Source: Hydrurus foetidus (lineage: Eukaryota). Taken from it: a DNA stretch of 51,418 bases. Every line of letters begins with the position of its first letter. Within the stretch, counting starts at the first letter, position 1. The notes under the pieces were generated by a model that did not search any database, had not been told where the DNA came from, and was given only the letters and a program-made list of their open reading frames with translations. Location: NCBI GenBank assembly GCA_900617105.1, contig UYFQ01000073.1, positions 1 through 51,418 on the forward strand. Direction: 5' to 3'. The position numbers and the translations under genes were made by a program. Positions 15,467 to 43,143 of the stretch are shown in pieces.

Positions 15467-15880
15467 TTTAGATGAACTAAAGCGCTGTTTTGACGAAGCA
15501 GCTGCAGGCAGAGCTTTTCTGGATTGGACGTCGTTCTTCTTCTGATTTGTGGAGCTTCTTTACAAAAGACATGATTGATGTCGATATAGAGCGATGCCAG
15601 ATGGAAAGCGATGAGCCGTTTCACTGCGAAAGTGAACGATGATCTTATCCGGAACTCGAATCACGAATGGAACCAGAACCTTTCAGTTTCATCCTTCGGA
15701 AACCTGACCAAATGTTGGTCATCTGATAGAGATCAACAGACATCGAGACGAGAATCAATTTTTATCTGACATTTTGAAGAGTTGCATTGGAGACGAATTT
15801 ATCGCCTCTGCTGATCTACTGAGAAAGATTTTCGAATTCGCCATTATCCAACGCGTTTACTCCGAAGTTAGAGAGGACAA

Positions 15881-18800
15881 ATGGATAGATTTAATAAATT
15901 GAATTCATATTTTGTAGATAAGGAGAGAAAGAGGCTGGATGCTATCGCGAAAGATACGAAATCAGGACTGCCAGAGATGTCTCCTGCTGAGATTAAAGTC
16001 TCGTGCTTGGAAAATGGTTAGTAGAGCTGTTGAAGAATTCTCAACAGCAACTGTGGATATGTTAGGTGAAATAAATCTCTATCGTCGCAGGTGGCTACGA
16101 AACTCCGGAGCTTAATGACAAAATCTATCTGCACTTCAGGGGATTTAAGAAAATAGAGAATTTAGAACCTTACACGGGTTGCAAAGCTATCTGGCTGGAC
16201 AGCAATGGCTTCTCAGAAATAGAAAACTTACAATGCCTAGAGAAACTGAGATGCTTGTATCTCAGCAAGAATTTGATATCCAGAATACTGGGGCTGGACA
16301 CTTTGAAAGATCTTACTATCCTTGACCTATCGAACAATCGGCTGACTCATATTGATAATCTTCAGGAATGTTCTTCTCTACAAACGATAAATCTCTCGAG
16401 AAACTTCCTAACATCTCCTGAGTCGATAAAGCATTTCAAGGATTGTCTAGCGCTGCAGAATATTGATGTGACAAACAACAAACTGGAGTGTGATGAAGAG
16501 TTTTTCGATGTTCTGAAATCTATTCCTTCTTTAAAAGCGCTTTCTTGCAATGGTAACGAGTTAACCAGATTGCCTCACTTCAGAAAAAGGTATTACTCCT
16601 CTCATCTTCATCTCTCCACTCCATCTCTTCTCCGATCACGAGACTCTCCATAAAGTCTAATTAGTATAAGAATAGTGCCATCAGGAAAAGATTCTCTCGT
16701 TTACTTCTTGTTTTGGATCATTACAATCATCATAATTTTACAGGCTGATTTCTTCGATTTCTGCGTTGGGGTACTTGGACCGGCCCGTTGACCCCCAAGA
16801 AAGATACATAGCAGACGCGTTCATGACAGGTACAAATTCTACATATGTGTTTTTTACATTCTGTTCAGTGTCTTTTTATCGTCACTCTTCCTGAAATGCT
16901 CCACTCTTCAGTGGCAAGATGCGTCCTCTATAATGGTATGAAATAGATGCTTATTCAAATCAAATATCGAAAAGGAGCATCTGTCCCATTTATTCGATTT
17001 TCATTATTCCTCCTAGTCGACTTCATTTCGATACTTTCAGTGTTCATTACAATTATATTCTCATTCTCATTCTCATTGTCATTGTCATTCTCATTGTCAT
17101 TTTATTTTTATTTTTATTTTTATTTTCTATTAAAGGCGGAATAGAGGGCGAGGTGCAAGCTAGAGAAAACTGGCGAGCTGACCAGTTGAAGAGAAAGCAA
17201 GAAGAACAAGAGGCGACCAAAGTGCGTTACACTTTGATTTTGATGCTGTTTTCGAGAATTACGAGTCTTTCTTTAGAATTATATTTTCATCTTAATTGTC
17301 TTGCGTCATCTGCCCTATTTTCCTCTTTCATTGTTATTTCAATTCCATCTCTTTCTGTGATTAGAAATATCGCGAGGAGCAAAGGAAGATCAGAGAAGTC
17401 GCGAAGAATACCGCTGATTCGCTGAGAGCGAAGGTGAGGTCGCTAGTTGCTATATGATAGTGTAAATGAGAGAATATGCATAGCACGAGTAATTACACTT
17501 CTTATACTGTATTTTCGCATGCGTATGTGCGAATCAGAATAAAAGATTCCGTTCCTAAGCAGTAACATTATTCAAAATTTAAAAATGCACAATTTTTTGG
17601 ATTAAAATGTCCAAGCTGTAAATTTTGTTCATCGCGTTCTTAGGAAACAAGAGTATCGAGGAACATATACTGAATTTAAATTACATCAAATCACAGCGCT
17701 TGGCAGACATTGCGGATGGGACTCTTGTACTAAATAAAGAGGAGCAATCAGAGTTAGAAAAAGGAAATGAAAAGGAAATAAAATCCTTAAGGTGATCTAT
17801 CGCCACTTGATAAATTTGGTGTCGTCACCTTTATTCTGTTCTATCTTTATTTTGCTGTAGAGCGTAATATCCACGGTAAACATTTATTGATTCCTGTGAC
17901 AAGCGTTGCTGTACTCGTAATCTTGTAGTCCTTCCATCCCCTTTAACATCTCTTCTCCTCTCTTTTATTCATTCTTCTCATCTCTTATCTTCAAACCTTT
18001 TTCTCTCTGTCCTCTTCTCTTCTCTTTTCACTTTTTTCTCCTCATCTCATCTCACCTCATCTTTGACCTCTTCCCTTTTTTCTTTTTCTTTCCCCTCTCA
18101 GCCCCACACGTGCTCTCACTAAGGAGGAACTGGAAGAAATCGAATCATACGATTCAGCAACTTTCTCAGCCTACAAATATTCTTATGACCAAGCATGCGA
18201 TGTTTTTCAAATTAAAGACAGCAAAGGAAAGGAAGAAGAGGGAGACAAAGATGGAAGTGACACTAAAATGAGCGTATATGCCGAATCGAGCAGCAATAAT
18301 GATGGAAATGGTGAAGACAGCATCAAATTTTCAAAAGTAGAAGAAAGTTTGAATCCAGTTGAGATCGATTTGGAAGAAGATCACGACGCCATGGAACTCA
18401 CAGAGATTAATAATTTAAATGAGCAAGAGATAGAATTGAGAAAAGTAAAAGAAGAAAATGATTTCATACAGGGAAAGGAAGAAAAAGAAAAAAACGACGC
18501 GGCAGAGAAAGAAGCTGCTCAAGGTAAGAAAATTAGGTGCTATTTCAGAAAATTAGATGTGGAATCTTTCAATATATTTCTATTATGTATGTCTAATTTT
18601 TTACGAAATTTGTATTTGAAACTAAACTTTTTTCTTTCACTTTCGTTACACCATGCTGTGTTTTTTAATTTTATGAAGTAGTACGCTTCTTTCCTATTTT
18701 TTGTCTTTATTATTCAAGAATACTGCACACGCTTTCTAAAAAGTCAGCAAGAAGGAATTGTGCTCAATCCAAATACCTTTATATCAACCCTAATTTCATT

Positions 18801-23291: not shown

Positions 23292-26200
23292 TCACTTCAT
23301 CTCCCCACACGTCATTTCAAGGTGATTAATTCTGTTTTTCAGAGCTGTTACTTCTGATCGCATTTCCTCTGTTAATTGCTTCACGGCAGACGCAATGAGC
23401 ACGGATGCTTTCGAGTAGAAGACAGCGCTGTATCCCTCTGCATCTTCCTCCACCTATATAGAGAGGAGGGGAGAGGGGAGGGGAGAAGAGAGAAGAGCAG
23501 GGAGGAGTGGGGAGGGAAAAGAAAAGGGAAGAGGAATGAAGAGAAGAAAAGAGAAGAGAAGAGGAGAGAGAAAATAGAATAGAATAGAATAGAATAGAAT
23601 AGAATAGAATAGAATAGAAGAATAGATTAGAAATGAAATGAAAGGAAATGAAAATAGGATGGATGGATGGATGGATGGAAAGGGGAGGGGAGGAGAAGGA
23701 TCGCATGAGACAAGGCCTTGGAGGGGGTAGAATGCAAGTAAGGCAGTGCAGGATCGAATATGGTAGTAGTGGACGACAGGATAGAAGGGAGTGGACTGCT
23801 AAAGGATAGTACAACAACGTACCATGATATGGTATGGTATGTTATGTTATAATTCAAAAGGAGAGAAACAAGGATGACATTGCATAGCACAGTATAGCAT
23901 TGTATAACTGAGTATAATGTCACATGGTACGACACTAAATTGCAAATCCATTGTTTGGCGATAATCCTTACAACGCATAGCAATTCTGTAAAGAATCGTC
24001 ACGAAGAGAGGTGGAGTGTTCGTTGGCACTCTTTCATAAACTGCACCCAAGTAATCCACTCTTAATCAGCATCTAATCTTACCAGTTGAGGAGCAACATT
24101 TCTGACTTCATCAGCAATCCAACCAACTTGTGCTGCACTTGGAAAGTGGCGAGTTGGGAAGTCCGCAGTGCGGAATAGATAGGAGACCTGCGTGGTGAGG
24201 ATAGTGTGAAGCACTTATGGGTGAGATTCGTATGCAAGAAATAGATCCGATTTGAGTGGATTGACATCTACATGTAGACATGAGTGGGAACAGAAGACAG
24301 ATCAGGGGAAAAGTTTGTCAAGACGTGATGGAGTGGAGAAGAGAAAAGTAGAGTAGTGTAGAGTGCAATATGACCTTATAAAGAAACGAGGTACGAGTGT
24401 AGACACGATGTAAGTGATCACCATCATCAATGTAATCATATAGTAACGATAATTATCGGAAAGAATTGAGAGATATTCATGGAATCAGAAAAAAGAGTGA
24501 GCATTTACGGGACAGAGAATGTGGACAGAAATGCATCCATCAAATGAACTACAAAAACGAAATAGAATGAAATACACCTCTGCTTTTTCTTTCCCTCCCT
24601 CCCTCCCTCCCTCCCTCCCTCCCTCCCTCCCTCCCTCCTCCCTCCCTCCCTCCCTCCCTCCTCCCTCCTCCCTCCCTCCTTCCTTCCCCTCCTCACAGTC
24701 ACATACATGCACTTACCCCTGAGAGCTTGTTGACCACATCGAGTGAATGGGCACCGTCCAACGGCTCAATGTCGTACTTAAATCTCCTGTCGGAAGAATC
24801 CATATAGGGACCCGAACCCATCACACTGCCGTGCACAGATAGAGCTCCGCCTAGGGGGAGAAGGAAGGAAGGAAGAAAGGAAGAAGGGGAGGGAGAGAAG
24901 GAGAGAGTGAATTGAACAGAAACAAATGAAATGGAAATAAGTGAGATCAAATAAGTTCATTAGAGATGAGAATAGAATGGGAAAAAATGATTAGAATGAT
25001 TAGCATCATAGAATATATGGCCTTATGTATGCACGGAATCAGTTTCAATCTGTGTAATTCAATCCAATTCAATTCAATTCAATTCCATTCCATTCCATTC
25101 CATTCCATTCCATTCCATTCAATTCCATTCCATTCCATTCAATTCAATTCAATTCAATTCCATTCCATTCAATTCAATTCAATTGTTTATGCGGCATACG
25201 GTCTACCTACGGTTACTGTGCCTTCGACGTCCAACACTCCCGTCACGTCCAATCTATCGGCTGAGAAGTTTACATTATTGGTAGAAATAAGAAAATGAAA
25301 ATGAAAGTGAAAATAAAAATAAAAATACAAGCAAAAAAGAGAATAAAAATGGAAATGAAAAAAACTGAAAGCAGGAATAAAAGTAAAGACGAGAGTGCCA
25401 ATTGAATTGAAGACATAGGATAGAATTTGATGTATTACATGTGGGGAAGACGTTTCATTGAAATGAATATTGGAGATGGGGATCAGAAGTGGTAGGGAAA
25501 ATCTAGGACCGAGTGGTGGTGATGACTGCCCGATGAGATTGTGCGTGAGAACAGGTGTGTCGAAGAGATGCTGTATGAGACAAGACAAGACAAGACAAGA
25601 CAAGACAAGACGAGACAAGACAAGACAAGACAAGACAAGACAAGACAAGACAAGACAAGACAAGACAAGACAGGGCAAGACAAGACAAGACAAGACAAGA
25701 CAAGACAAGACAAGACAAGACAAGACAAGACAAGACAAGACAAGACAAGACAAGACAAGACAAGACAAGACAAGACAAGACAAGACAAGACAAGACAAGA
25801 CAAGACAAGACAAGACAAGACAGGGCAAGACAATACAAGACAAGACAAGACAAGACAAGACAAGACAAGACAAGACAATACAGGGCAACATGAGACGAGG
25901 CATCGTAGAAAATGTTACACTCAGTAAAATTATTTTACGCAAATAGATATAACAACTTTTGATTTTGACTCAACAAAATTGAATACACTTTACTGGAAGA
26001 TCACGGCTATTCCGTTATAATTCTTCTCAGCACTTACTTGTTATACCGGCCATGCCGTGTATCTCCCCTCCAAATATAACCGGATTTATGATGTTTGCAC
26101 GGCTGATGTTGAGCCTCATCCCCAAAGGGAGAAGGGGAGGACTTAAGGAACCTAGGGCCAGGGTCCCGTTGTTCAGAAGGGTCAGGGAGGAGGGACGGAG

Positions 26201-29200
26201 CCGACCGGTCTAAAGGAAGGGGGGTGGATATGAGTTGTGGTCAGATGTGATGTCGTGTATTTGTGCAGTGTGATGAGATAAGATTAGATGTGATGCGATG
26301 AAAAACGATACAATAAAAAGTGATTCATCCTAACACATTTCACTGACGAGAAACCACACCACATAGAAGAACGTCTAATCATAGAAAAAGGAAAAAGTAA
26401 GATAACATCAGATAAAATGAAATGGCATCGACTCACTTTTTCATCTGCGACAACTAAACTCTCTCCTATACTTCCATTCCCATCCTCACTCTCACCACTC
26501 TCTCCACTATCATTATCATTATCATTCTTTTTTCTGTTTTTATCATCATAATAATTGATTTTTATTTTGTCAAATTTTCCATCCTCAACTTTTTCTATCA
26601 AATTTTCATTCATTTTCACAATTTCATTCTTCTTTGTATCCACTTTCATTTTCATTTTCATATTCGTTTTTATTTTCGTGTCCGTATTCATGTCAAGTGA
26701 AATGTCGCTCGATAGAACGGACGCGTGTTCGAGCCGTACGTCTTTGAATAATTGACTCGCTGATATCGAACTAACAATACCGTTTTGGTCGATAATCAGT
26801 AAAGCGGATTCCGTATTTTTATTTTTTAGTGAGTTCAGGACGAGTTCTTTGTTCAATTCTAGTCGGTCAATCTGTTGAAAGCGGAGATGGTTTGGAGAGG
26901 CGAATAGACCAGGGTGAAAAAGTGACGAATGGTGTGGTGTGGTGTGGTATGGTATGGTATGGTATGGTATGGTATGGTATGGTATGGTATGGTATGGTAT
27001 GGTATGGTGTAGTATTTAAACTATGTAAACTGAAGTGAAGTGAATGACAAAGAATTTTTTTATTTCAAAAGTAATTACGAATAGAAAAATAAACTTCAAA
27101 ATTCTGAGCTCGCACAGAATCTAATAAAATGGAATGCCTTTAATACTTTCCGTGTTTACCTGTATATCTGTAGCTGGTTTAAGTTTTCCCTCTTTATCTG
27201 TGCTGATAATAGATGCTGAACAGGAAGAGTGTGGAGAGAAATACAGAATACAGAATTTGAGTGAGTAATGTGTGCGTCATATTCTTGGATAAAGATACAG
27301 GCAGTAATTACGATAGGAATCATTCATGAATTAATTCAGAATGCAACTAGTCATAGTATGGAGTAGTCGTGAAAAGTGCCCTTCACGGAGAAAAGTGATA
27401 TAGCAACGGAACAGCGCTGCAAAGCAAGAGATGCAGCTACTTGGTGTAAATTAGATTAGTAAAAATAATGAAGTTCGTATAATGAGGAAAATGCAGTTGA
27501 AGCAAATGAAACGAAAGGAACAAGACAGGCGAGTAAAGTAGAGTGGAGTGCAGTAGAACGATTAGTAGAGCTGAGGTAAAGCAGATGGACTGACCGGATC
27601 GCATGGAGGGGATTATAACGGATGTAGCCGCAATGTGCAGGTCCTCCATCACACCGCCAACTATCTTTGCGTTCGCCAGGACTGCATTGCTATCAGAGAG
27701 GAGGAAAAGGATAAGGAGAAGGAGAAGGAGAGAAGCGAGGAGAGAGAGTAAGAGGGAGGTAAGGATGGAGGGAATGAAGGAGAGAAGGAAGGATAAAGCG
27801 ATGAAAGGAGTAAATAATATTAAGCAGAAAATTATTGAAGTTGAAGTCGAAGTTGAAGTTGTGCTGTGTTTAACGTACGTCAGTTTGAAGCCTTTGACAT
27901 CCATATCTCCCCCCAACTCCCCCGCCACTATGCAGGGTGTACGGAGTATACCGGAAACCTTAGGCCGATTGACTCCGTTTAGTAGGGGTGTGACGGTGTA
28001 TGTGAGGGAGGGAGAGTCAAGTACAGTCCCGCCTATTCCGGTATACGGTATCCTCCCTTCAGTTAGCCGGTGAGACCGGAGTCTTCCAGCTGAAAACGTG
28101 AAGTCCCCTATGTCAATATCGTTTGCAGCACGGAACTCTCGTACTCCACGTAACTCCTGTGTAAGCGAGTGAGTGAGTGAGTGAGTGAGTGAGTGAGTGA
28201 GTGAGTGAGTGAGTGAGTGAGTGAGTGAGTGAGTGAGTGAGTGAGTGAGTGAGTGAGTGAGTGAGTGAGTGAGTGAGTGAGTGAGTGAGTGAGTGAGTGA
28301 GCGAGTGAGTGTGCGTGTAAGAGAGCGAGTGTAGATGTTTGTGTATATTGAACTTTAAATAATGATGTTTCTGTATTTAAGACATCATTAATGCTCACGT
28401 ATGTGTGTACATACACACACGTATGTGTGTACATACACACACGTATGTGTGTGTAGCGCATTCGCCCGAGTACGCACGAATGCTGATGTACGTACTTGTA
28501 TTGGTGTTCTGAGAGCTTGAACGTCGACCCAACTGATGGATAAATAGAGAGAGAGATGAGGGAGCAAAGCGACAGAATGTTGAGAAATAGAGTGAAGAGA
28601 GAGATTTAGGGGAGTGTGTATAGCACACTAATTTATAGTGTAAAATATAAAATCAGAAGTAAAGTCACCTTTTGACTTCACTCCTTACATCTCTTTCTCA
28701 TCCCCCCTCCCGCACCCCATCATCCTTCCTCTCCCTTCTCTCCCACCCCCATCCTTATCTTCATCCATTCTCACCTTTCTCTTCCCCTCTATTTTCCCCT
28801 CACCATTTCTCTACTCTTGTTGCTCCTCTCCTCTCCCAGTAGCACAGAGCTGTTAGAGGGGATCCCCAAGCTGCCCACTCTAACCGTGTGCAAATCTTTA
28901 TTCTGAAGCAGAAGAATTTTACCGGAATGGATCTTTGATCCGTCTATTCCATCCTAGAATTGACAATATTGAAGCGGCTGATTAATCATTCGCAGAATGA
29001 AGGAGATGTTTATGGTAAGAGGAATGTGACGAAAGTCAGATATCATGGAGATTAAATGTGCGCTCATATTGCAGTAAGTACAATGACGCCCAGCACCACA
29101 TCACTATACCACATGACATCACATGGCATCAAATGATATCGCACCACACCACACCACACCACACCACATTACACTACATTACATTACACTACACTACACT

Positions 29201-32200
29201 ACACTACACTGCACTACACTACACTACACTACACTACACTACACTACACTACACTACACTACACTACACTACACTACACTACACTACACTGCACTACACT
29301 TACACTACATTACACTACACTACACTCCACTCCACTACACTACACTGCACTGCACTGCACTACATTACACTACACTACACTACACTACACTGCACTAGAC
29401 TAGACTAGACTAGACTAGACTAGACTAGACTAGACTAGACTACACTACACCTCACTACACTATTCGACATTACATTATATTACACTACACTACACTAACT
29501 CACCTCGAAGACCAATTCGTTTCTCAGCTTTTCTCCATCGTCTTCGACCACAACAAAGGAAGAGGAGTGGGCGGGTATCTCGATCTTACGGCCAGCTTTT
29601 ACTGTATGCCGGTTAAGAGACAATCCGCCCTGGAGGGATGTCTGCAATTGGTATGAGAGTCGTTGAATTTATTGCATGGGAAAAGAATGAGAAAGTCATC
29701 AATATGACGCTGTGGAGGAGCATTGTGTGAAATTGTACTTTACTGTAATATCACACAGTCATACCTTGTTTTGTTACTTAGCGATTTCGTGAAATCATAT
29801 GGTACCATCGTAGTAGTGAGTCAACTTACTAATCAGTCATATTGTGTGCTTACATGCGTTGTGTGTTGCATCGTCTCATGCCATATCAAACCAGACGTTA
29901 CCTTCAGATCCATTTTTACGATATCACGTTTGAATATATCACATCTCATTACATCATACCGTACCATACCATGTACTCATGAACAAACCAAATAGCTTAT
30001 TGTAATACCAAAGCAGAATAAAATGTCCGCTTTTCGTGCCCAAAACTCAAACACCTCGGGTCACGTTCAAATCACCCCACACCACACTAAAAAAGCAAAA
30101 TATCTGGGGAACCTTCCTCTTTTTGATTTTTAGTATGGTGTGGGATCAGTTTTTGACAATTCCACACACACGTTTGAGTTGGATTTTGGGCATGAAAAGC
30201 GGACATTTTATTCTGCTTTGGTAATATACTGCACCACTAACAAATATCAGTGCAAGAATACGTACGTGTTTCTGTACGTACAGCCCGTCCCCCCCTAAAA
30301 GTACCGCCCCCCCAACCGACCGGAAGGTCCCATCCCCGGTTATATCCACCACTATCTCCCCTGGGGGAAAAAGGGAAAAATAGAAAAGGAAAAGAATGAG
30401 ATGAGTTGAGATAGAACAGAATGGGATAGCAGAGGAGAGGAAAGCGAGGGAAGGGTGAAGCAGGCTAGCATGGGATAAGATGAAATATAATAAAATAAAA
30501 TGAAAGAGGATAGGGTGGGAAGGAGCAAGATGGCATTCAGTTGAACACAATGGAGTAGAGTGGAACAGATAAGAATAGTATGTTATAGTATATACTATAA
30601 GATTTGGTGAGATAGGACAAGGTTGAATAAGGTAAGTGTAGGTGTGATGAGATGTGGGGGAGGAGAGGAGTGGAGGTATGCAATAAGGTTGAAAAGGGAC
30701 ATAACAAAAAGCACTGAGAAACAGCAAATAAATCCTGCATTAATAGGAAATGAATATTTCCTTCAGAATTAATTGAACCAATTAGCCGTGTTGCGGCCAA
30801 TTATACCGGACATCTCACCCTTTTCGTCTCCTGTTCCTTCAATTTCTTGTTTTTCTTGTTTTTTTCGTTTTTCACTTTCCATATCATCTTCGTTTTTTTC
30901 ACTTTTTTGACCCCTTGTGCTTCTCCTTGCTGTGAAATACGAAAATTGGCTGCTCTCCGTGTTTACCCGTAGACTGATGACGGATCCGGTAAAATGTCCT
31001 GAATCACTATTAAAAAATAAATTATTTATTTGGCATGGCAATAACGCATTTATAAAGTACGACAATAACACAAAAATTGCAGACAAAAATCATCGCGAAA
31101 AACGCAAGACGAATTAAGACGTAAAAAATTGCGAAATAAAAGTGATCAAGTTTCCGTGAAATACCTGGCGAGACTTAATAACGGTTTTGCGTAATTGGTA
31201 CTGCGAGAAAATGCGGATAAAGTTCCGCACTCAAAATCACTGAAATAAAAATAGTTGTAAAGTATGTGTTTGTGTAAGTACAGTACATGAGGATGGGAAG
31301 CGATTGGTAATTGGCGGTAGACTGAAGCTGATGATATTGACTAATATTTACGTAGTGTATACATAGCAATTAAACAATGGGTAGGGCGATACAGCGCAAA
31401 GAAACAAAGTGTGTGAGCAAGAAAAAAAAATGAAGATAGAGATGATAAGAAAGAGGTAGAGAAAGATGAAGAATTCAAAAATTGTTGACCAATTTACGGG
31501 AGTATGGAAAAATGAAATTCAAAAAACAGAATAAGAAAAAGGAGACTGCGAGCGTGCAAGCAAAGAAAAAAACAGATCGAAAATACTGTAAGTAAGATTT
31601 TAGTTTCAATATGATTTGTTAACAATTGAAATGCAATGTCATTTAGGATGTGAGTAATAAAATGATGACGAACCGATTTGTCATATTTAGTGTTCCGCTC
31701 TCGAGAGTTAGTCCGCCTTTCACTGACAGACCACCTGCTAATATCTGATTGAGGGAAAGTAGAAAGTAGGTAAGAAATAGCATACAAAAACGAACACGCA
31801 ATCCCTCCCTCCCTCCCTCCCTCCCTTCCTCCCTTCCTCCCTCCCTCCCTCCCTCTCTCTTACCCTCCCTCCCTCTCACCCTCCCTCCCTCCCTCCCTCC
31901 CTCCCTCCCTCCCTCATTCACACAAGTCACACACATTCACGCACACTGACACATGCATTCACAAGAACGCACGTACAGTACTTCGTATGATTACCTTGAC
32001 TCCCCCAGCATTCACCACTATTCCTCCCGAGCTCATTTTCATGCCCTGGGGAGAAAGGAAAAGTTAAGTAAATTAGATGCAGATTCAGATATGTCTATAG
32101 TATCAGATTTTGTTATTAGAAGAGTGCAGTGGAGGAGAGCAGAAAAAAGAAATAAAAGAGACAAATTGTCCGATGGCCAAACAAACAGGAAAAAAAGCAA

Positions 32201-35200
32201 ACACACACACGTAAAGAATCAATCATAGATATGAAGAAAAAAGAATAGATGTGAAAAGAGAAATAATCAATAAAGATATAGTCCGTGTAAAGATGACGTA
32301 GTAAAATTGCCATAATAGTGGTGATAAGTGCAATAAAATGTGAAAAAAAAGAGGTTAGAAGTTAGAGTTGTACAAAAACTTGTCCGATCAAAATAATAAT
32401 AAAATCAACAAAATACCACTTAACAAAAAAGAAAAACTCAGCTTCTTGAAAATAGGAAAAAAGTTAAGATACAATTAATGACGTACTTTAATGTCCATCT
32501 GTCCGTCACTGTGTATTTCAAAAGTAGTTACTCCACCTACAACAGCCTTGATCAAACTAGCGCTACCTCTTTCTCTACCTCTATTGTTGTTACTAGTGCT
32601 GTTGTCGGAGTTGAACGTACTGTCCGTACGAAGCAATATCATCGATCCTAAGAAGTAACAGAAAGGTAATAATGATATTAAAATGATGATAATTATGTCG
32701 ATAAAAATGATGGCAGTAAAGATGACGATGATTGCAAAGCACTAGGATGTTGCTGAAAGGTACACTACAGCACACAGTAGTTGTAACGTTGAGCTGCAGG
32801 TGACCTTCGCGACAGAAATCAAATAACAGTGCAACATAGTGATCAGATCACTACATATCAAAATCACTACCTTCCTCATCTACACCAAAGTCTCCCTCTC
32901 CCTCTCCTTTTCTTCCTCTTCGTCTCTGTGTTTCATCCTGCGATTGCTCTACGGTTGAGAGGGAAAGAAGGGGCCTAAACCCGTTCCGGCCTACCACACT
33001 AACACCCCCACCCTCGATATCGCACACACTACCGGATGACCCTCCTATCGTAACGCCTTCTATGACATTCAGTCTACCAGCAACTTTCAGTTTCCCTTTA
33101 ACCGCTACCCCCCTGTCTATTCCGACATCACCGGTTAACGGTATCCGGAATGTCCCGTTGGATACGGTAAGAGATCCGGTTGACTTAACATCGCCTTGTG
33201 ACGACACAGAGAACACTTGAGAGTTGTCTGTATAGGCTGATATGTGCATTCTTCCATTCTCATTACGATATCTATTCTCCTCCTCTATCTCCTTCATTTC
33301 TTCTTCTTCTCTCTCGTCAATATTTGTGGCACCACTTTCTCTGCCTTCTCTTCTCTTTCCCTTCCATCCTCCCCTTCTTCTCTCTTCTTCAGTTTCTAGT
33401 TTTCTCTTTCTCACTCTGTCTTCCTCTCCCTCTATCCAGCTCGCTAACTTAAGATCAGAGAAAATAAAGAGAAGGAAAGGGGATTCAAGGAGTGATAGGA
33501 AAAAACATTGGACAGAAAAGAGCACAGAAAAAGCTTTCTTACATTTGCGTTTTCATCTTCGAACACTTGCGTGTCCACAGATTTGGTACCAATGTCAACG
33601 TGTCCTAGATATTTGGTATCAATTTGAAATAAAAAATGAATATGCAAATAAAAATACATTTTGGGTATGAGCTAGAAATAGAAAGAGCTGGAAAGGGAAG
33701 GAATCCATAGAGAAGCGAAAGAGAGACAAAAACGGTGAAGTGGAGATCTAAAGAAATAGGTAGAGTAAGTAATAGCGAGTGTCTAACTTATTCAGTAAGA
33801 TTGAGTGCGGATGTGAGGGTGAGGGACATACAGCAGGGAAGACAATCAGTGGCGAATATAGAAGCCCTCTAATAAGCGAGGTACTGACATAACTGGCATG
33901 TGATAAGACAGAATAATAAGAAAAGAAGTGAACCCGGACATAACCTTCCACTCTCCTTCCCTCCCTCTTATCCCTCGCTCCCTTCCTCCCTCCCACTCCC
34001 TCCTTTCCTCCCTCTTATCTCCCAATATGTCATGATCCTTCCCACCCTAATTTCCACTCCTTCCCCCTCTTGCACTTACCCAGTATCCGCGCTTCTCCAC
34101 TGTGCAGTACTGCTCCGTCTCCTCTAAGGCTGAACACAGGACGATCGCTATTCAACTAAAAGCGATGAAAGAAATAAGCGCAGTAAAGGAATTAAAAAAA
34201 GAGGGTAAAAAGTATGTTAGTAGTATCAGTATACAATCTAATCATATGATAAGATAAGATGAGATATGGCGCATTATATCATATCACATGGCACCTCACA
34301 CATACGCGTCTCCATACCACACTACACTATACTACACTACACTACACTACACTACACTACACTACACTACACTACACTACACTACACTACACTACACTAC
34401 ACTACACTACACCACACTATACCACATCACACTACACTATACTACATCACACCACACTCCTTTGCACTGCACCACATGCACATGACATGGCAAGACATCA
34501 TTCACTTGACAACCACACTAACCTGCAGTAATTTGAAATCCACTGAAGGATTTCTGTGCGCTGTGACTGAGGGAACCGATCCCGTGAAGTACGGACCATC
34601 GTGTGTGTTTGCCATGATATCCTAGAGGGATGGGAGAGATGGTGGGAGAGGGAGGGAGAGAGAGAATGATGGAGGGTTTCAACTTGTGTTTAAGAACTCT
34701 CATGGTTCATTTTTTGAATACTTGTTCGGTATATTTAATGCGATAGTAGTTATGATCACTTGATCAGTCAGTCAGTCAGTCAGTGTACGAGTCAGTGAGT
34801 CAGTCAATCAGTGTACGAGTCAGTGAGTCAGTCAGTCAGTCAGTCAGTATACGAGTCAGTCACTCAGTCGGTGAATCAATCAGTTAGTCAGTCAGTCAGT
34901 GAGTGAGTCAGTCAGAATCAGTGTGTGAGTGAGTGAGTCAGAGTCATCGTCAGTCAGTGTGAGTCAGTCAGTCAGTCAATCAGTCAGTCAGTCAGTCAGT
35001 CAGTCAGTCAGTCAGTCAGTCAGTCAGTCAGTCAGTCAGTCAGTCAGTCAGTCAGTCAGTCAGTCAGTCAGTCAGTCAGTCAGTCAACAGTCAGTCAGTC
35101 AGTCAGTCAGTCAGTCAGTCAGTCAGTCAGTCAGTCAGTCAGTCAGTCAGTCAGTGTACGAGTCAGTCAGTCAGTCAGTGAGTCAGTGAGTGAGTGAGTG

Positions 35201-37255
35201 AGTGAGTGAGTGAGTCAGTCATTGTACGAGTTAGTGAGTCAGTGAGTGAGTGAGTCAGTGAGTCAGTGAGTCAGTGAGTCAGTGAGTGAGTGAGTGAGTC
35301 AGTCAGTCAGTCAGTGGAGAATTTTTTACACCTTGTCGTCAGTGATGTCGTCACAAGCTGCCCCCTTGAACCCTAAGTGGCACATACACTCTCCCTTGAT
35401 TTTGAGGCACTCTCCATGTCCCCCACACTCCAAATACCCTAAGGTGCAGTGCGGTGTAGTGAAGTGCAGTGTAGTGTAGTGTAGTATAGTATAGTGGAGT
35501 GTTTTGTGGTGTAGTGGAGTGTGATACAATGTAGCATAGCGTAAAATAGTTAAGATTAGTGTGTAAGATGGAGCATCATATCTTATTCAGTATCATCATG
35601 TGATGCAATGCAGTGCATCACAGTAGAAACAAAATGACACTGCAAAATAATCAACACACATAAGAATCTGATGCTAAATACGTACGTACTTACTTGGTAC
35701 GTTATCAGAAACGACATCTTCAAATACGCACTTCACTCCTTCCACTACATCGCTGTCCACCAAGGTAGTGTTGCATTGAAACATCGAAATATTTGGATTG
35801 CCCGTGTGTTGCACAATATTGTTCATATACGGTTTCAAAGGATATTTCTGTATACTAAAAAGAAATGACCCTGTACCAGATTCCTGATTTATATTTTCAG
35901 TTTTGCAATTTACTGTTTCTGTACTCTTCCACCCTTTTAATATTTCAGTGCATGTATGATCGGACAGCTTGGTCGTGTTAGCCGGGAAAGATACAGTCGA
36001 CCCTACGGTATACATAGGGGAGTCTTCTAAATAAGTGCGGCATTAACAGTCTGGAGAAAACGTGTACAGACATCCTCTCTTAAGTGCGTATACACAGACA
36101 AATTAATATTCCCTCTCTCATGTACACATCCTTTCTCCCTCAACTTTTCTATGAATCTCTCACTGACTCACTGACTGACTCACTCATTCACCACCTCACT
36201 CACTCTGTGTCTGACTGTCTCACCCACTCAGCCACACCCTTTCGCCACACTTGCACACACACACACTCTCATGCACCTGCAAAAGTGACCCCTAATGTCC
36301 CACTCATGATCCCTTTTTCCACCGACGTGACGAGTCTCACAGTACGCCTTAATGGGGTGGAATCTAGATCCAAGATCTCGAAAGCTGCAGGACACACCTC
36401 TACAGTAATTGATCGGAAATGGCCGTCGTTAATTTACCGTTATGCGGGTATGGTAGTAATGAATGTATATTAGGTGAGTGGTGATACGTATGAATTCAGG
36501 GAGGAGTATCCTGAGTAATAGCAAGTAAAGTTTGCTATATAATACAGCGAATTGGTGATATACGAGTGTGTATTGTAAGAGAGATTCGTGATGAACATGT
36601 GATAAAAAGATAAAATGCGAATCGGTAATAGGTGTGATAGCGATATCACAAACGATGTAAAATCAATAAGAGGAGAAGCAAAGATTGAGACAAAGATTTC
36701 TACTTCTAAGAAGCAGTTCCCACAAATATGTTTCAAAACATGGTACAAAATGCGTTCACATCTAATAAGTCGTGAATGGTACACAGGAAGACAAAAATCA
36801 TCATTACTATCGCTAGTGGTTTGACAAAAGTCGCATCATGTCATACTTTGAGAACAATCGTCTCCAGTGACTCCCATGAAACATTCGCAGAAGCCTCCTT
36901 CTTGAGGTCTTGCACAGATTCCTCTCTTATTGCACCAATTCGGACATCTGTACGCGAAACGAAATCAGTGTAGCCAAGGATCTCATTAGAAGCTGATGAC
37001 AATTACGACGGAGTGCCTGCTGGAATGTGTGGTTCTTGCTGAATCAAAAGCTGATTGATCGTCATGGTGATACATTGCGCAACAGGTGGTCACTGTTTTT
37101 CAGTTTGACTGATTTGCAAATTGCAGACTGATTGAAGCATATCAACAGTATTCCTCTTTAAGATTCTATTCAGGAAGGACTTACTCCGCAGAAATCTTCA
37201 GGGACCAGATGAACAGCGCGCAAAGCTGGATACATCGACTGCTACTTGTTGACAT
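23292..37255 (-). CDS. Secreted EGF-like / tail-fibre-like repeat protein with C-terminal Peptidase_S74 intramolecular chaperone (ICA) domain; about 27 exons, about 1,300 aa
   Basis: Exon 1 (37255-37185) encodes the signal peptide MSTSSSRCIQLCALFIWSLKISAE. EGF-like modules: CPNWCNKRGICARPQEGGFCECFMGVTGDDCSQKVCP (36947-36847 plus the next exon) and YLECGGHGECLKIKGECMCHLGFKGAAC (35438-35332). Gly-rich beta-strand repeats follow. The S74 domain reads GSGPYMDSSDRRFKYDIEPL...LDVVNKLSG (24850-24717), VSYLF...QVGWIADEVRNVAPQL (24187-24083) and VEEDAEGYSAVFYSKASVLIASAVKQL plus a coiled coil and TGA (23452-23292). Almost all junctions are GT-AG and phase-compatible; one near 28836 is doubtful. Confidence 0.85.
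25057..25880. repeat. (ATTCC/ATTCA)n and long (GACAA)n microsatellites in S74-gene introns
   Basis: Pentamer runs at 25057-25183 and 25579-25880, with a coding exon (25260-25209) between them. Confidence 0.92.
28167..28310. repeat. (GAGT)n microsatellite
   Basis: Tetramer run in an S74-gene intron. Confidence 0.95.
29143..29500. repeat. (CACTA)n/(GACTA)n compound microsatellite
   Basis: Pentamer run that switches unit by single substitutions. Confidence 0.92.
30008..30221. mobile_element. MITE (214 bp, probably Tc1/mariner-type) in an intron of the S74 gene
   Basis: 38-bp terminal inverted repeats CCAAAGCAGAATAAAATGTCCGCTTTTCRTGCCCAAAA with one mismatch, flanked by TA on both sides (30006-7 and 30222-3). 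Extra internal inverted segments; no coding capacity. Confidence 0.85.
34313..35315. repeat. (CACTA)n (34313-34455) and (CAGT/GAGT)n (34763-35315) microsatellites
   Basis: Tandem runs in introns on either side of exon 34621-34523. Confidence 0.92.
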
Positions 37256-37797
37256 CGCGACACTACCTATAAGTTCTCAGGAAGTTTCAAAATTCCCGAA
37301 AATTTCACGCAAAACCGACGCTAAGACGAAATCAATTGATTACGTTGCAGATCTACACCTTGCTAGCCATGAAATATGCCACATAGAGCGGATATGAACC
37401 TACCAGCTGTGCTGCATGGTGATCGAAACTCAAATACTGAAGAGACTGTAGACTGAATGTAATAGAACTCCCAACATTGTCCTCTGTCCGTCACATACAT
37501 GTCCATCGTGAATGTCGATGTGCTACACTTTCATTTGACATCATTCACCATCAATTTGGTACTGTTTGGCAACTTTGCATGTTGCTGCAATGAAGCAGCT
37601 GATACCTGCAGAATCTTCTCCGTTTTAGTCGCTTTGGTCGCTTCGAAAATCAGCGATATCATTGAAGTGAACGGAAAGACGCACCTAAGCATCCTCAAAG
37701 CAAAGCTAATCCAAATCTACGCCATCGGAATTGACAAGCACGCACATTCTCAGAACCTCTGAAACTATTTGCTTCAGCAAAACACCTTGTACCAGAT

Positions 37798-40700
37798 ATG
37801 TCCTTTGAAGCGCTTCGTATACTCTTGGCAGTCGTGACAATATTGGTTGGATTACCATCAGCATACACTGAGCGGACACCAGGTGCACCATGCGTTCCTG
37901 TGACTGGAAAAACAGCTCTATTTATCGGCCAGGATTACTACTCTATCCTAAACTACTCTGCGGCTGTTAGGAGTGATCCCTTCGGAGTCATGACATACAC
38001 AGGTGAGAAGAACGTTCCTCGACCATTCCTTCAGTACACTCCAAAGAACACTTATCCTCCAGAAAAGACTGACACATTATTTTCTGGGCGTACGATATGG
38101 GCATCATAAATCTTTGCTGATTTTAAGGGACATTTGGTGAAAGTGAAGTATTTGTTGTTGGTCAGCTGTTGTCGCTCCTGTCGCATGTTGTGAGATAAAC
38201 ACAAAACCTTGGTGCAGTCAAGCGCATTACACATCTAATACGCAACTCGCGCTATAGGATGGGAAGCAATTTTTCTGATTGACTAAGATTCGTCAAGCTG
38301 ACTCTAGCCGAAGTAATCTTTGAATTCATCGGAATGCATCACCTGTTATGTTATGTTATGTTATGTTATGTTATGTTATGTTATGTTATGTTATGTTATG
38401 TTATGTTATGTTATGTTATGTTATATTATGTTGTGTTGTGTTGTGTTGTGATGTGATGTGTTGTGTTGTGTTGTGATGTGATGTGTTGTGATGGGATATG
38501 CTGTGATGGGATGGGATGTGTTGTCATGTGCTGTGCTGTGATGTCATGTCATGTCATGTCATGAGCTCTGATATGATATGATTGGATATGATGTGATGTG
38601 ATGTGATGTGATATGATGTGATGTGATGTGATGTGATGTGATGTGATGTGATGTGATGTGATGTGATGTGATGTGATGATGTGATGTGATGTGATGTGAT
38701 GTGATGTGATGTGATGTGATGTGATGTGTTATGATATGATGTGTTATGATGTGATATGATATGATATGATATGATATGATATGATATGATATGATATGAT
38801 ATGATGTGATGAGATGTGATATGATATGATGTGATGAGATGTGATGTGATGTGATATGATATGATGAGATGAGATGTGATGTGATGCCGCCAACAGCTTG
38901 CAAAAATCTCTCTGTATCACACGATCTCTGATCATTGTAGTAGTTGAAGTAATGGTTAGGAGGGTAGTCAGTGACATCATAGAAAGAAGTGTCGTGATGT
39001 GACTGATGCCGTACGCTCGTATGTACAGCAACGCATGTCATCTTGTGCTGTGAATTTTTCCAAACTCAAAACCAATAATCAAAAGCTGGAAGCCAAAACA
39101 ATATCCTAAAATTCAAATCTACTATTACTTTATAACATAAATCTAAATGTTCTATTATTTATTTTTTATCTGCTTTGTTAACAAATAAAGCGCTGCGCAG
39201 TGATACGGGTAATTTGGCCGGATTACACAGTCCGGTTAATTACGGCTCCGGTATAGAGTGGGCAGGTGGACTGATTCACAGATACAACACGACATCGCTG
39301 CAAATCGGTGAGAAGTCATTCATGATATTACTTAGATAGCAATCCACATTTTTTCATCGGTTCATATGATGTCTTCCGAAATTATTGTTTTTCAGTATGA
39401 TTTTCTTTATTTGTTTGGTAGAGTTTGTCTTCCCCATTCAATTCCACTGTATTTTAGTACGTTCTATTTTATCCTATTTTATCCTATCCAATTTTCGTAA
39501 TGTTTTGTAACACTGTTAACAGTTTGGACATTTTTACTGTTTCTGAAAAAGCATTTATTTATTCCGTTCAAGTTATGTATTCTGTTTGACACGAAATCAT
39601 CTCATGCATCGTGAGGAAGTCACAGCGAAACAGTAATATCACATTTTCGTGCTCTGAAATGACCGCTCAGAACAACGATTCCCTCTCTATATTCGTCAAA
39701 CTTGCTCCAAGAAAATCCTCAAAAGTGCTGTTTTGTTTTGTCTTCAACAACAATACATGTGTCTTGTATATTACATATCACATACACTTATTTCATGATC
39801 GACTATCACACCTAATACGACGATACTTGTACCAAACAGGTTTGTGGCTAGTTGGCGCGTGTGACGACATAGTCGCTGGAAAATTATCAAAAGAAATTAA
39901 ACGATTAGCGACCTTTTTTCTGTCCATTTTTCCAACACCAGTCTACCTGCGAATCGGTTACGAGTTTGACTCACCCGAGAATGCGTATCATCCTATTTCG
40001 TACATCACTGCATTTCGAATAATAGTGGATGCCATGCGAATGTACAATGTACAGAATGTCGTGTACGTGTGGCACTCTTATTCTCAAATCCCTCAAGGGG
40101 GAATGCTGCAGTCAAATTGGTATCCAGGTAATCGATTTTATGTCCAAAACAAATTCCATCGTTTTACATGATGTCCTATTATTCATTTTGTATTGTGCTG
40201 TACTGACATATGATGTATACTTTTACTACAATGTCGCTCATGCACTTAGGAACATAACGGATGTGTATTTTCTATACATAAAAAATAAGTTCACCATTTC
40301 CCAACACCATTCAAGAATTTGCTAGCATGTAATCTGTGTAACTGCCATCAATCGCAGGGGACGATTACGTAGACTGGTGCGGAGTGAGCATTTTCCAACA
40401 ACCGTATGCGTGTCAAATTGCTGACAAGTGCACGGTAAGAGCGTTTATGTATATTAGAAGTGATCGATAGGAAGGAGTGGCGATGATCACGAACTTTATC
40501 AGTACGTGCTATGTTCCTACCTACCTACCTACCTACCTTCCTATCTCCTTTCCTCCTCCACTTACTTATACTATCCAACATTTGTTCTGAAAATATCTTA
40601 AATGCCCTCTGCACCACTCACACCACTCGACTCAAATACCCTCTAAATTACCCTTAATATAGATGCCGTATGCTGACGAATTAGCCCTGTTTTGCAAGTC

Positions 40701-43143
40701 GAAAAAGAAGCCCATTATGATTGCTGAGAGCACCCCCTTTGGGGGGATCAATCAGGGACTGAACTCGGGGGGCAATCAAGCAGGTGCGTGTTAATGTGTT
40801 AGTGTGAGTGAAGGAATGAAAGAAGGAGGGAGGGAAGAGGGTGGGGCAGCGGGAGGGAGGGAGGGAGGGAGGAGTGTGCGAGAGAGGGACACAGTGTGTG
40901 TGAGTGGATAAGGAAGGGGGTGAGTGATGGTGAGAGGAAGACAGGGAGGGATAGAGAAAAGGAAATCGGTCAATCGTGGGTTCAGCATAACTGGTAATTG
41001 ATGAACGCTCTATTTCAGTGCAACATAACTGAACGCTATACAGCGTGACCCCTCTTTATGTCATCTGTTTCCTTCCACCAACCCAATCCTCATCATGCAT
41101 CACACATCTTTACTTATACAACGTCAACTATTACCACTCCATCCATACGGTATGCATGCAGCTCAATTTATAATGCCAACTACGCAGCATGGGTCTTTTC
41201 AGTATGCTCGCTTTGCTTAATCATATCGTATATTATCATATCGCATAATATCATATCTCACCTCAACACACTACACTACACTACACTACACTACACTACA
41301 CTACACTACACTACACTACACTACACTACACTACACTACACTACACTACACTACACTACACTACACTACACTACACTACACTACACTACACTACACTACA
41401 CTACTACACTACCTACATACACTCACTCATTACACTCTTACCATCACACCAACCACAACCAGGTTATATCCGTCATCTCTCATCATGACTCATCTTCATT
41501 GTATTCGTATTCTATTCTTTTCTACGTTCTATTCATACGTTCTATTCTATTCTATTCTATTCTATTCTATTCTATTCTATTCTATTCTATTCATTCTATT
41601 CTATTCTATTCTGTTTTATTCTTTTCTATTCTATTCTATCTTATTCTATTCCATTCTATTCTGTTCTATTCTGTTTTATTCTTTTCTATTCTATTCTATT
41701 CTATTCTATTCTATTCTATTCTATTCTATTCTATTCTATTCTATTCTATTCTATTCTATTCTATTCTATTCTATTCTATTCTATTCTATTCTATTCTATT
41801 CTATTCTATTCTATTCTATTCTATTCTATTCTATTCTATTCTATTCTATTCTATTCTATACTATTCTATACTACTCTATTCTATACTATTCTATACTATT
41901 CTATTCTATTCTATTATTTGTATATTCTTACGCCTCGTGATCATCTCAATAACGACACGAGTACATCACTTGGGAGACGACAGATTACGGCAATGTGTTT
42001 TACTTTTTGATAATAATTGCACTCCTTGTATTTTGTCACATGAACTTCTCCTATAATAAAATAACTTAAAATCTAACTTAATTTCATTATTTTTACCCAG
42101 ACATGATGTGCGTATTTGGTCTTACATTAATTGCAATTGGGACGCCCAGCCGATGTGGCAGTTGAAGCATGCGAGCGGTGTTGCGTGGGGAGACTCGAGA
42201 GTGGAAGGTGAGAGAAAAGTGTAACACTTTTATGAGAGATAAAAAATGTTACACTTGTATGGAGTGAAATAGAGTGTTGCATTTTCATGACGAGTCATAA
42301 AGTGTGACACTTTTATAAAGAGAAACGAAGTGTTACACTTTTGAAATGTGGAATAGAATGCAACACGTACATAGAGGGATACAAAGTGTTACACTTATAT
42401 GAAGACAGAGTAACAGTGCATGGATAGAGAAATAGAGTGTTACACTTTCATATTGTATTTTAATTTGCAGTCTTTTTGTACATTTCATATTATGTTCTAT
42501 TGTATCATATTGTCTTGCGTAATGCAGCACTATTTAATATCACGTAACGTCATACTATATTATACTATTTTGTTTTTCTGTGTTGTATTATAAGATGCTA
42601 TTTTTTTCTTTTTTCCAAGATATGACTCCAATAAAATGTAAGTGTGGAAATTGATTAGCATATCTTCACATACGTAAACATTTTGACTCTTCATTACTTC
42701 TCACTTGCAAGTACACATTACTCTGCATCACATTCTTTTTCATCACAGAATATCCGGTAATATATAAAAAGTGGCAAGATGAAGTGTTACACTCTGATCG
42801 ATTTCGATGGGTGGCAAAAGAAATAGGAAGGGAACATTATTGCCGAGATAAATTGATCACACCCGGCTCAGGAGGAGGAGGAGGAGGAGGGGGTGACACA
42901 AACGATGACACATCGTATGATGATGACGACACATATTCAGAATTCAAAGACGACGAAAATGAGATCTTCTCCTTTGATAATTATTGGTTTAAATTGAAAA
43001 CTATTTTCGCAAGCGATGTAGCGTTAGTGCTCTACACTGTACTTATTATACTGTGTCTGTTGTATCTTGTTTATTATCTTTTTGTGAATCACGAAATATT
43101 GAGGTTAGCTAGGACACGCAGTGGTTACTCCTTAGTTGCATAA
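37798..43143 (+). CDS. Glycoside hydrolase family 26 (beta-1,3-xylanase/mannanase-like), type I membrane protein; one internal exon appears to be missing
   Basis: Exons 37798-38002, 39191-39307, 39840-40127, 40358-40434, 40663-40783, 42101-42207 and 42749-43143. Signal peptide; LFIGQD; VYLRIGYEFD (acid/base Glu); WYPGDDYVDWCGVSIF; KPIMIAESTP (nucleophile Glu); WSYINCNWDAQPMW...WGDSRVE. The C-terminus has a TM helix and a GYSLV tail. There is a phase mismatch between 40783 and 42101. Confidence 0.85.
38345..38886. repeat. Compound (TTATG)/(TTGTG)/(ATGTG)/(ATATG)n microsatellite
   Basis: Array with a 5-bp period in GH26 intron 1. Confidence 0.92.
41268..41915. repeat. (CACTA)n and (ATTCT)n microsatellites
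   Basis: Runs at 41268-41412 and 41505-41915 in a GH26 intron. Confidence 0.92.
42218..42447. repeat. Degenerate ~28-bp minisatellite with palindromic AGTGTNACACT core
   Basis: Core variants start at 42218, 42245, 42273, 42301, 42329, 42357, 42385, 42407 and 42436. Confidence 0.65.

What the first reader, a model, noticed from the sequence alone, without database searches (positions are those of the whole stretch)
23292..37255. Eukaryotic secreted, self-cleaving phage-fibre-like protein: signal peptide + EGF + beta-repeat shaft + Peptidase_S74 chaperone
Seen in sequence: a gene of about 27 exons, invisible as a whole in the ORF track. It encodes a signal peptide, two EGF-like modules, about 900 aa of Gly-rich beta-type repeats and a C-terminal ...YMDS-S-D-R-R-F-K...GWIADEV...coiled-coil domain, with no obvious TM anchor. 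Established knowledge: S-D-x-R-x-K with G(F/W)IA(Q/D)EV and a terminal coiled coil is the Peptidase_S74 intramolecular chaperone of phage tailspikes and fibres (e.g. K1F endosialidase) and of MYRF. It drives trimerisation, then cleaves itself off using a Ser-Lys dyad; both residues are intact here (Ser codon 24794-24792, Lys codon 24779-24777). Inference: this protist secretes a stable trimeric fibre with EGF modules at its N-terminal end, built by a domesticated phage-type folding mechanism. It could be part of flagellar hairs (mastigonemes), an extrusome or a prey-capture adhesin. The many spliceosomal introns argue against contamination.
Basis: partly seen in the sequence, partly recalled or inferred. 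Interest (0 to 1): 0.88.

Follow-up and report, generated by a model that had tools for sequence, protein, structure and literature searches.

The report
Self-cleaving fibre with flagellar-hair head
An intron-rich gene, with relatives in golden algae and water moulds, joins a head like that of flagellar-hair proteins to a predicted three-stranded fibre that ends in a phage-type chaperone predicted to cut itself off, which makes it a candidate for the thin filaments on those hairs.

Summary
The minus strand carries 26 exons (37255-23292), about 1,300 aa: likely signal peptide, EGF, an alpha/beta domain, EGF, a 956-aa shaft and Peptidase_S74 with Ser and Lys five residues apart. 24 of 25 introns are GT-AG; the odd one lies where the window lacks a short piece seen in a DNA run. 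Four eukaryotic loci encode the whole architecture as one ORF. Named relatives are Mallomonas and Phytophthora. The dyad is kept in 23 of 23 family rows with the domain. A homolog's mid-shaft, without the chaperone, folds as an intertwined trimer (0.88, best control 0.00). New here: the head is of the mastigoneme (OCM/Mas) type; a Phytophthora relative matches all six chains of the tubular-mastigoneme entry 9ufe, none of which carries S74. Best reading: a chaperone-folded trimeric fibre, likely a terminal or lateral filament of flagellar hairs (0.5). Expression, cleavage and location are untested; RNA runs gave no test. S74 in eukaryotes is known, so a recent phage origin is not shown.

The parts
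23292..37255 (-). Whole gene, 26 exons, about 1,300 aa. Exons (5' to 3'): 37255-37185, 36947-36847, 36399-36277, 36002-35694, 35438-35332, 34621-34523, 34155-34080, 33604-33543, 33447-32871, 32647-32487, 32045-31995, 31744-31674, 31006-30807, 30360-30266, 29641-29504, 28953-28837(+missing end), 28532-28496, 28156-27879, 27689-27595, 27215-27160, 26871-26437, 26209-26038, 25260-25207, 24850-24717, 24187-24083, 23453-23292
   Evidence: collinear with full-length homologs
37185..37255 (-). Exon 1: likely signal peptide (aa 1-23)
   Evidence: sequence; same position as hydrophobic leaders of homologs; no predictor run
36847..36947 (-). Exon 2: first EGF-like module, like the third EGF module of OCM proteins
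   Evidence: Pfam EGF_2 / EGF_Teneurin; profile alignment to 9ufe chains
35694..36399 (-). Exons 3-4: conserved alpha/beta domain between the EGFs, four invariant or nearly invariant Cys and an N-N-x(3)-H-x-G motif
   Evidence: alignments; homolog model pLDDT mostly 84-92; best fold match 9d93 Z 10.4, rmsd 2.5, 103 aligned
35332..35438 (-). Exon 5: second EGF-like module, like the terminal EGF of OCM proteins
   Evidence: Pfam
25207..34621 (-). Exons 6-23: shaft of about 950 aa, beta-rich, with charged low-complexity inserts in exons 9, 13 and 21; the conserved part (about aa 540-890) is predicted to be an intertwined trimer
   Evidence: trimer job on homolog P0091 385-715
28836..28837 (-). 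Point at which the window lacks the end of exon 16 and its donor (assembly collapse or deletion allele)
   Evidence: loose ends of two contigs of run X2; six residues in homologs
23292..24850 (-). Exons 24-26: last beta-helical turns, Peptidase_S74/ICA domain and terminal helix (likely coiled coil), stop at 23294-23292
   Evidence: profile match to 6f45, 7dc3, 8jov
24792..24794 (-). Predicted catalytic Ser (aa 1187 of the model)
   Evidence: spacing as S587/K592 of MYRF
24777..24779 (-). Predicted catalytic Lys (Ser+5)

Best explanation
The gene encodes a likely secreted protein with a mastigoneme-type EGF head, a long shaft predicted to form a three-stranded beta fibre, and a C-terminal S74 chaperone predicted to cut itself off; it likely forms the thin terminal or lateral filaments of the tubular flagellar hairs. 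Proposed course: the signal peptide takes it into the ER (inferred); three C-terminal coiled-coil and ICA domains meet and set the register (from MYRF, phage and Bdellovibrio work); the shaft zips into an intertwined trimer (predicted for a homolog); the Ser-Lys dyad releases a 12.8 kDa tail (inferred from conservation); the three EGF heads dock on the OCM/Mas tube as kin of its subunits (inferred, untested), leaving a fibre about 60 nm long (956 aa at about 0.65 A per residue, a rise taken; relatives with 2,000-2,300 aa shafts would reach 130-150 nm). The fibre and cleavage part I put at about 0.85, the flagellar-hair location at about 0.55 given that.
For: Shown in sequence: architecture and dyad. 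One-ORF homologs with EGF and PF13884 in 4 of 24 loci (L002, L003, L006, L008); the other loci are partial or intron-split. Dyad in 23 of 23 family rows that end in the domain, near-duplicates included. Homotrimer of homolog P0091 385-715, no chaperone included: ipSAE 0.88 in three runs, best of 3 controls 0.00, pLDDT 84, runs agree in at least 96% of contacts, many best inter-chain pairs six residues apart; the mark was reached by 21 of 30 solved homo-pairs and 0 of 23 single chains (eukaryotes 17 of 29 and 0 of 30), calibrated on two copies only. Head: Phytophthora relative P0115 aa 13-184 matches all six 9ufe chains at E 1e-39 to 2e-27; the window's protein aligns to P0115 and P0114 over aa 44-284 (E 4e-18, 1e-21) and over the tail; its two EGFs correspond to the third and last EGF of OCM chains. 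All named family members are from flagellated stramenopile genera (Mallomonas, Phytophthora; flagellation recalled). Mastigonemes have terminal and lateral filaments (PMC2108286 abstract); the six 9ufe chains are 209-748 aa and match the family only in EGF-bearing parts. The window holds Tctex-1, RIIa-domain and LRR genes that fit a flagellated cell (the reading as flagellar is my recall).
Against: No location data. RNA runs X4 and X5 laid no read on any of the six exons tested, which is no test of expression. The window's own head lacks the first two EGF modules that give the strong OCM match; for the chrysophyte-type alignment the 9ufe matches are moderate (E 2e-10 to 1e-3), close to L-selectin at 5e-4. 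Homology of the middle domain to any OCM domain is not shown. Phytophthora zoospores hold 18 EGF proteins of which only three are known mastigoneme proteins (PMC12223298 passages), so an EGF head does not fix the location; none of the 15 EGF rows I saw is annotated S74. Relatives P0120 and P0121 have the head but no S74, and P0119 lacks it too. The trimer may pass from memory of phage beta-helices, and was run on a 30%-identical homolog. Distribution was sampled thinly; absence from non-flagellated stramenopiles was not tested.
Confidence: 0.5

Rival explanations
1. The same self-cleaving trimeric fibre, but used elsewhere on or outside the cell: cell coat, cyst or scale matrix, attachment or prey-binding fibre, in the manner of Bdellovibrio MAT adhesins or the TLP-12 glycofibril.
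For: Many EGF proteins of zoospores are not mastigoneme proteins. Shaft length varies from 861 to 2,336 aa and the C-terminal end is exchangeable (P0120, P0121), as in MAT S74/NS74 subgroups (PMC10769870 passages). The shaft is Ser/Thr-rich in Phytophthora (27-32%).
Against: The oomycete head is a near-complete OCM-type module, a family reported as unique to flagellate stramenopiles (bioRxiv 10.64898/2026.09.11.750887 passage). No membrane anchor is seen, so the fibre needs a protein scaffold or is released.
Confidence: 0.35
2. A mastigoneme-family protein that works inside the ER or Golgi as a nucleator or ruler for hair assembly and is not part of the mature hair.
For: PnMas3 is reported as needed for development rather than in the mature structure; hair shafts assemble in the perinuclear space; no S74-bearing chain is in entry 9ufe.
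Against: ICA-folded beta fibres described so far are stable end products. Flexible filaments would be expected to be missing from a helical average (inference).
Confidence: 0.08
3. In this genome the gene is broken or split (a deletion allele at 28836, or two genes), or it is a remnant of an inserted virus-like element.
For: The window lacks the exon 16 donor. No RNA support was obtained. Polinton-like viruses of protists carry S74 fibres (PMC12220804 passages).
Against: Run X2 holds the missing piece and no X2 contig spans the window's form; all 26 exons align to homologs in order; 25 introns; ordinary eukaryotic neighbours; no viral relative; that paper lists ochrophytes among the groups whose PLVs lack the domain.
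Confidence: 0.07

Closest known systems
Tubular mastigoneme proteins OCM1-6 / PnMas1-3 / Sig family (PDB 9ufe)
   Same: Leader peptide, no membrane helix, the same EGF modules; the oomycete relatives carry the three N-terminal EGFs, an inserted domain and a closing EGF in the OCM order.
   Different: OCM chains end after the last EGF (209-748 aa); here a shaft of 860-2,340 aa and an S74 domain follow. The window's protein lacks the first two EGFs. Kinship of the inserted domain is not shown.
Phage tailspike and tail-fibre chaperone, Peptidase_S74/ICA (PF13884; endoNF, PDB 6f45, 8jov)
   Same: C-terminal S-D-x-R-x-K dyad, G-W-I-A motif, terminal helix, beta-rich region upstream.
   Different: Nuclear, intron-rich, disulfide-rich EGF head, likely ER route; no relative in viral or prokaryotic contig scans.
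MYRF ICA domain (PDB 7dc3)
   Same: Eukaryotic ICA with Ser and Lys five apart and similar residues just upstream.
   Different: MYRF is a membrane-bound transcription factor with the ICA in the middle; here it is terminal, behind a long shaft.
Bdellovibrio MAT fibres (PMC10769870)
   Same: Signal peptide, conserved N-terminal domain, variable-length trimeric shaft, S74 and non-S74 endings.
   Different: Bacterial, prey-binding shown; no EGF head; no sequence relation found beyond the chaperone.
TLP-12 glycofibril candidates of alveolates (bioRxiv 10.1101/2025.09.30.679562)
   Same: Protist triple-beta fibre with a predicted C-terminal ICA domain.
   Different: Strict dodecapeptide repeats, about 20,000 aa, alveolate; no EGF head mentioned.
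Unstudied database entries: Phytophthora KAG7386686.1, KAG3114519.1, KAE9020280.1; Mallomonas annulata EP01041 P001065
   Same: Same family; automatic labels already say EGF-like or Peptidase S74 domain-containing.
   Different: No description or function found in the ten paper searches.

Membership tests
Peptidase_S74 / ICA (PF13884) | Profile match at or above the Pfam cut-off | tested here: met
   Exon 24 alone 22.9 bits (cut-off 22), exon 25 continues the model; unspliced homologs 42-61 bits
Peptidase_S74 / ICA (PF13884) | Ser-Lys dyad, five residues apart | tested here: met
   23 of 23 rows; spacing from PMC8326128 section 7
Peptidase_S74 / ICA (PF13884) | Upstream region forms an intertwined homotrimer | tested here: met
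   Prediction only, on homolog P0091 385-715: 0.88 against 0.00; may reflect likeness to solved fibres
Peptidase_S74 / ICA (PF13884) | C-terminal trimeric coiled coil | tested here: inconclusive
   Long terminal helix in a low-confidence monomer model of P0024; no trimer job on this part
Peptidase_S74 / ICA (PF13884) | Autocleavage before the Ser | not testable with these tools
   Needs expression
OCM/Mas tubular mastigoneme proteins | Three N-terminal EGF modules plus a closing EGF | tested here: not met
   The window's protein has only the third and closing EGF; met in the Phytophthora relatives. So I file it as a relative, not as a core OCM member
OCM/Mas tubular mastigoneme proteins | Signal peptide and no transmembrane helix | tested here: inconclusive
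   No TM by hydropathy; leader weak, no predictor run
OCM/Mas tubular mastigoneme proteins | Inserted domain of OCM fold | tested here: inconclusive
   No sequence match; 9ufe not listed in fold searches and may not be in those libraries
OCM/Mas tubular mastigoneme proteins | Restricted to flagellate stramenopiles | tested here: inconclusive
   Named members only Mallomonas and Phytophthora; non-flagellate genomes not screened
OCM/Mas tubular mastigoneme proteins | Located in the mastigoneme | not testable with these tools
   No location data
Polinton-like virus or phage fibre gene | Viral context, intron-poor, viral relatives | tested here: not met
   25 introns, eukaryotic neighbours, none of 11 viral pattern matches confirmed

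The most novel reading that the evidence does not exclude
The terminal and lateral filaments of stramenopile tripartite hairs are phage-tail-fibre-like triple beta fibres, made by a mastigoneme subunit whose C-terminus was extended with a shaft and a self-cleaving chaperone before oomycetes and ochrophytes split; shaft length sets filament length, and the two size classes seen among homologs (about 900 and about 2,100 aa) give filaments of two sizes.
Probability: 0.3. Interest if true: 0.85.

Novelty: new variant of a known kind. Interest (0 to 1): 0.62.

Why it matters
Tripartite flagellar hairs define the stramenopiles and reverse the thrust of their flagellum. The tube proteins are known and solved (9ufe), but I found no named protein for the thin filaments in my searches. 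This family offers a concrete candidate with a testable mechanism: a 13 kDa release that depends on one serine, and a filament length predicted from shaft length. Even if the location is wrong, it is a conserved family of eukaryotic secreted fibres folded by a phage-type chaperone in algae and oomycetes.

Tried and rejected
No whole genome is held, so copy number and Mas paralogues in this organism were not checked. Exon 4 alone found no homolog among 106 candidates; exon 18 found the family (80 hits, most of them unrelated repeat proteins such as P0001). No RNA holder listed; X4 and X5 laid 0 reads on 28315-29135 and only microsatellite reads on 35530-37400: no test. Alternative readings of exon 17 (another frame, a micro-exon, a GC donor) were dropped. 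The full-length monomer model was poor (mean pLDDT 36); Foldseek gave nothing under E 0.001 for it or for the head; VIA gave the head domain Z 12.1 and 10.4 with a Bxb1 tail-tip protein and aa 569-654 of P0024 Z 9.5 with a tailspike domain, which show fold only; 9ufe was not listed. Atlas searches returned one unnamed 212-aa EGF cluster without taxa. ICA tree: chrysophyte-type rows group at 96/90, oomycete rows at 98/97, their union is neither found nor rejected (p-AU 0.152; 5 of 27 rows dropped as long or near-duplicate); no MYRF or PLV sequence was in it. PPTG_14518 (812 aa, EGF, signal peptide, GO 'protein autoprocessing', spectra in both cell-body and flagellar fractions) could be an orthologue or a Hint-domain protein; its sequence could not be fetched, so it is not used. 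Paper searches for S74 with stramenopile or oomycete terms, chaperone with mastigoneme and the 9ufe paper found no description of this family; most subscription papers are not in the library, bioRxiv supplements are closed, and I saw 15 of the 18 EGF rows of the zoospore table plus one more.
Full report
Observation. I rebuilt the gene on the minus strand by coordinate. It has 26 exons from 37255 to 23292. The spliced model is about 1,300 aa with no internal stop when six unknown residues are allowed at one junction. 24 of 25 introns are GT-AG, and exons are richer in GC than introns, 0.465 against 0.398. Pfam on 12 single exons finds EGF on exons 2 and 5 and PF13884 on exon 24 (above cut-off) and exon 25 (below cut-off alone). 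No membrane helix is seen by hydropathy; the leader is weak and was not run through a predictor.

The one broken junction. Exon 17 needs a phase-2 donor that the window does not have. Two contigs of DNA run X2 break at 28836/28837, and the loose end on the exon 16 side reads on in frame for five codons to a phase-2 GT; no X2 contig spans the window's form. Seven of eight homologs have six residues at this place and one has eight. The window therefore lacks a short piece, through assembly collapse or a deletion allele. X2 may be the window's own source, so it is not independent. RNA runs X4 and X5 laid no read on exons 1-4, 16 or 17; that is no test, and splicing and expression remain unshown.

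One protein, one family. Exon 18 found full-length relatives; P0024, P0044 and P0048 carry both EGF and PF13884 at or above cut-off, and P0068 below it for S74 because it is cut short. A profile search added Mallomonas annulata and Phytophthora fragariae and a further search other Phytophthora species. In 4 of 24 metagenome loci the whole architecture is a single ORF. The window's model aligns to these from end to end, for example to P0090 at E 2e-120 over aa 14-949 and 7e-37 over aa 946-1282; every exon aligns to some homolog, exons 1 and 21 least. Scans of viral and prokaryotic contigs confirmed none of 11 and none of 40 pattern matches. Neighbours in the window are Tctex-1, DHHC, RIIa and LRR genes. 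The organism is likely a flagellated ochrophyte near the chrysophytes; this rests on the nearest named homolog only.

The chaperone. Of 26 family rows examined, 23 end in the domain and all 23 keep S-D-x-R-x-K; three (P0119, P0120, P0121) lack it. Some rows are near-duplicates. The family profile matches phage chaperones 6f45 and 8jov and MYRF 7dc3. In MYRF the dyad S587/K592 is required for cleavage and trimerisation of the domain is needed (PMC8326128, abstract and section 7); in Bdellovibrio Bd3182 the S782A change blocks processing (PMC10769870, passages). Cleavage here is inferred, not shown.

The shaft. It is 956 aa, 12% Gly, with charged inserts; in relatives it runs from 861 to 2,336 aa. 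Three copies of the conserved mid-shaft of homolog P0091 (385-715, chaperone not included) scored 0.88 in three runs against a best control of 0.00, pLDDT 84, at least 96% agreement of contacts, with many best inter-chain pairs six residues apart. The mark was reached by 21 of 30 solved homo-pairs and 0 of 23 single chains; on eukaryotes 17 of 29 and 0 of 30, and by only 1 of 7 with no older solved relative. The calibration held two copies only, and the pass may reflect likeness to solved phage fibres. It supports an intertwined trimer; it does not show it.

The head. Between the EGFs lies a conserved domain with four cysteines that folds with good confidence as an alpha/beta domain, closest to a Bxb1 tail-tip domain (Z 10.4, rmsd 2.5, 103 aligned). 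The Phytophthora relatives have two more EGFs in front, and their first 180 aa match all six chains of the tubular-mastigoneme entry 9ufe at E 1e-39 to 2e-27. The window's two EGFs answer to the third and last EGF of those chains. So the family looks like an OCM-type subunit with a fibre and chaperone added. Against over-reading: the chrysophyte-type head alone matches 9ufe only moderately, kinship of the middle domain with OCM is not shown, and zoospores hold many EGF proteins that are not hair proteins (PMC12223298, passages and supplement file 1).

How it likely works. Secretion into the ER, trimerisation from the C-terminus, zipping of the shaft, release of the 12.8 kDa tail, and docking of the EGF heads on the hair tube, leaving a filament of roughly 60 nm (rise per residue taken). 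Ochromonas hairs have lateral filaments of two sizes and one to three terminal filaments (PMC2108286, abstract only), and Phytophthora hairs have terminal filaments (bioRxiv 10.64898/2026.09.11.750887, passages). None of the six 9ufe chains has the shaft or chaperone. I give this 0.5, another surface or secreted fibre 0.35, an assembly factor 0.08, a broken, split or viral gene 0.07.

Novelty. ICA domains in eukaryotes are known: MYRF, alveolate glycofibril candidates (bioRxiv 10.1101/2025.09.30.679562, passages and section 7) and polinton-like viruses (PMC12220804, passages). Databases already label the Phytophthora proteins EGF or S74. Earlier notes of this scan describe other protist S74 fusions (unchecked). 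I found no paper on this family or on a link between S74 and mastigonemes in ten searches; the paper behind 9ufe was not in the library and may discuss it. A Cafeteria proteomics preprint (passages) did not bear on it. The origin of the domain is unresolved. Verdict: a real gene, a new variant of the ICA-folded trimeric fibre, with a good but untested claim to be a flagellar-hair filament. Interest 0.62.

Noticed in passing
window 46807-48690 (+): Intron-free 627-aa ORF that looks like a hAT-type DNA transposase (recalled motifs; no Pfam hit).
   Followed up: partly
window 37735-43143 (+): Divergent multi-exon gene starting about 500 bases from this gene's start: leader peptide, glycoside hydrolase 26-like motifs by recall (no Pfam hit on single exons), and a hydrophobic segment near 43000.
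   Followed up: partly
window 7729-8100 (-), 15224-15559 (-), 16075-16653 (+): Tctex-1, RIIa-domain and LRR genes, which by recall resemble a dynein light chain, a radial-spoke or ropporin-type protein and a dynein assembly factor; several likely flagellar genes lie in this window.
   Followed up: partly
window 11348-11827 (-): DHHC palmitoyltransferase exon.
   Followed up: no
window 346-1070 (+): Small protein whose N-terminus looks like a bipartite plastid-targeting leader (recalled pattern), suggesting a plastid-bearing ochrophyte.
   Followed up: no
P0120, P0121 (unnamed proteins): Same mastigoneme-type head and a beta-rich shaft, but a different C-terminal domain in place of S74: a non-S74 branch of the family.
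   Followed up: partly
P0093, P0109-P0113, P0116-P0118, P0122: Phytophthora fragariae and P. rubi entries range from 2,074 to 2,528 aa with near-identical heads, suggesting repeat-number variation of the shaft or assembly differences.
   Followed up: no
window 35530-37400: DNA run X3 shows many allelic differences; the four small indels listed for it, and one in X1, all lie outside the exons (too few to be significant). A contig of run X1 covers exon 4 with its introns at about 96% identity, so it is DNA of a close relative.
   Followed up: no
PMC12223298 supplement file 1, row 1013: PPTG_14518, an 812-aa secreted EGF protein annotated 'protein autoprocessing', found in zoospore flagellar and cell-body fractions; may be an orthologue.
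   Followed up: partly
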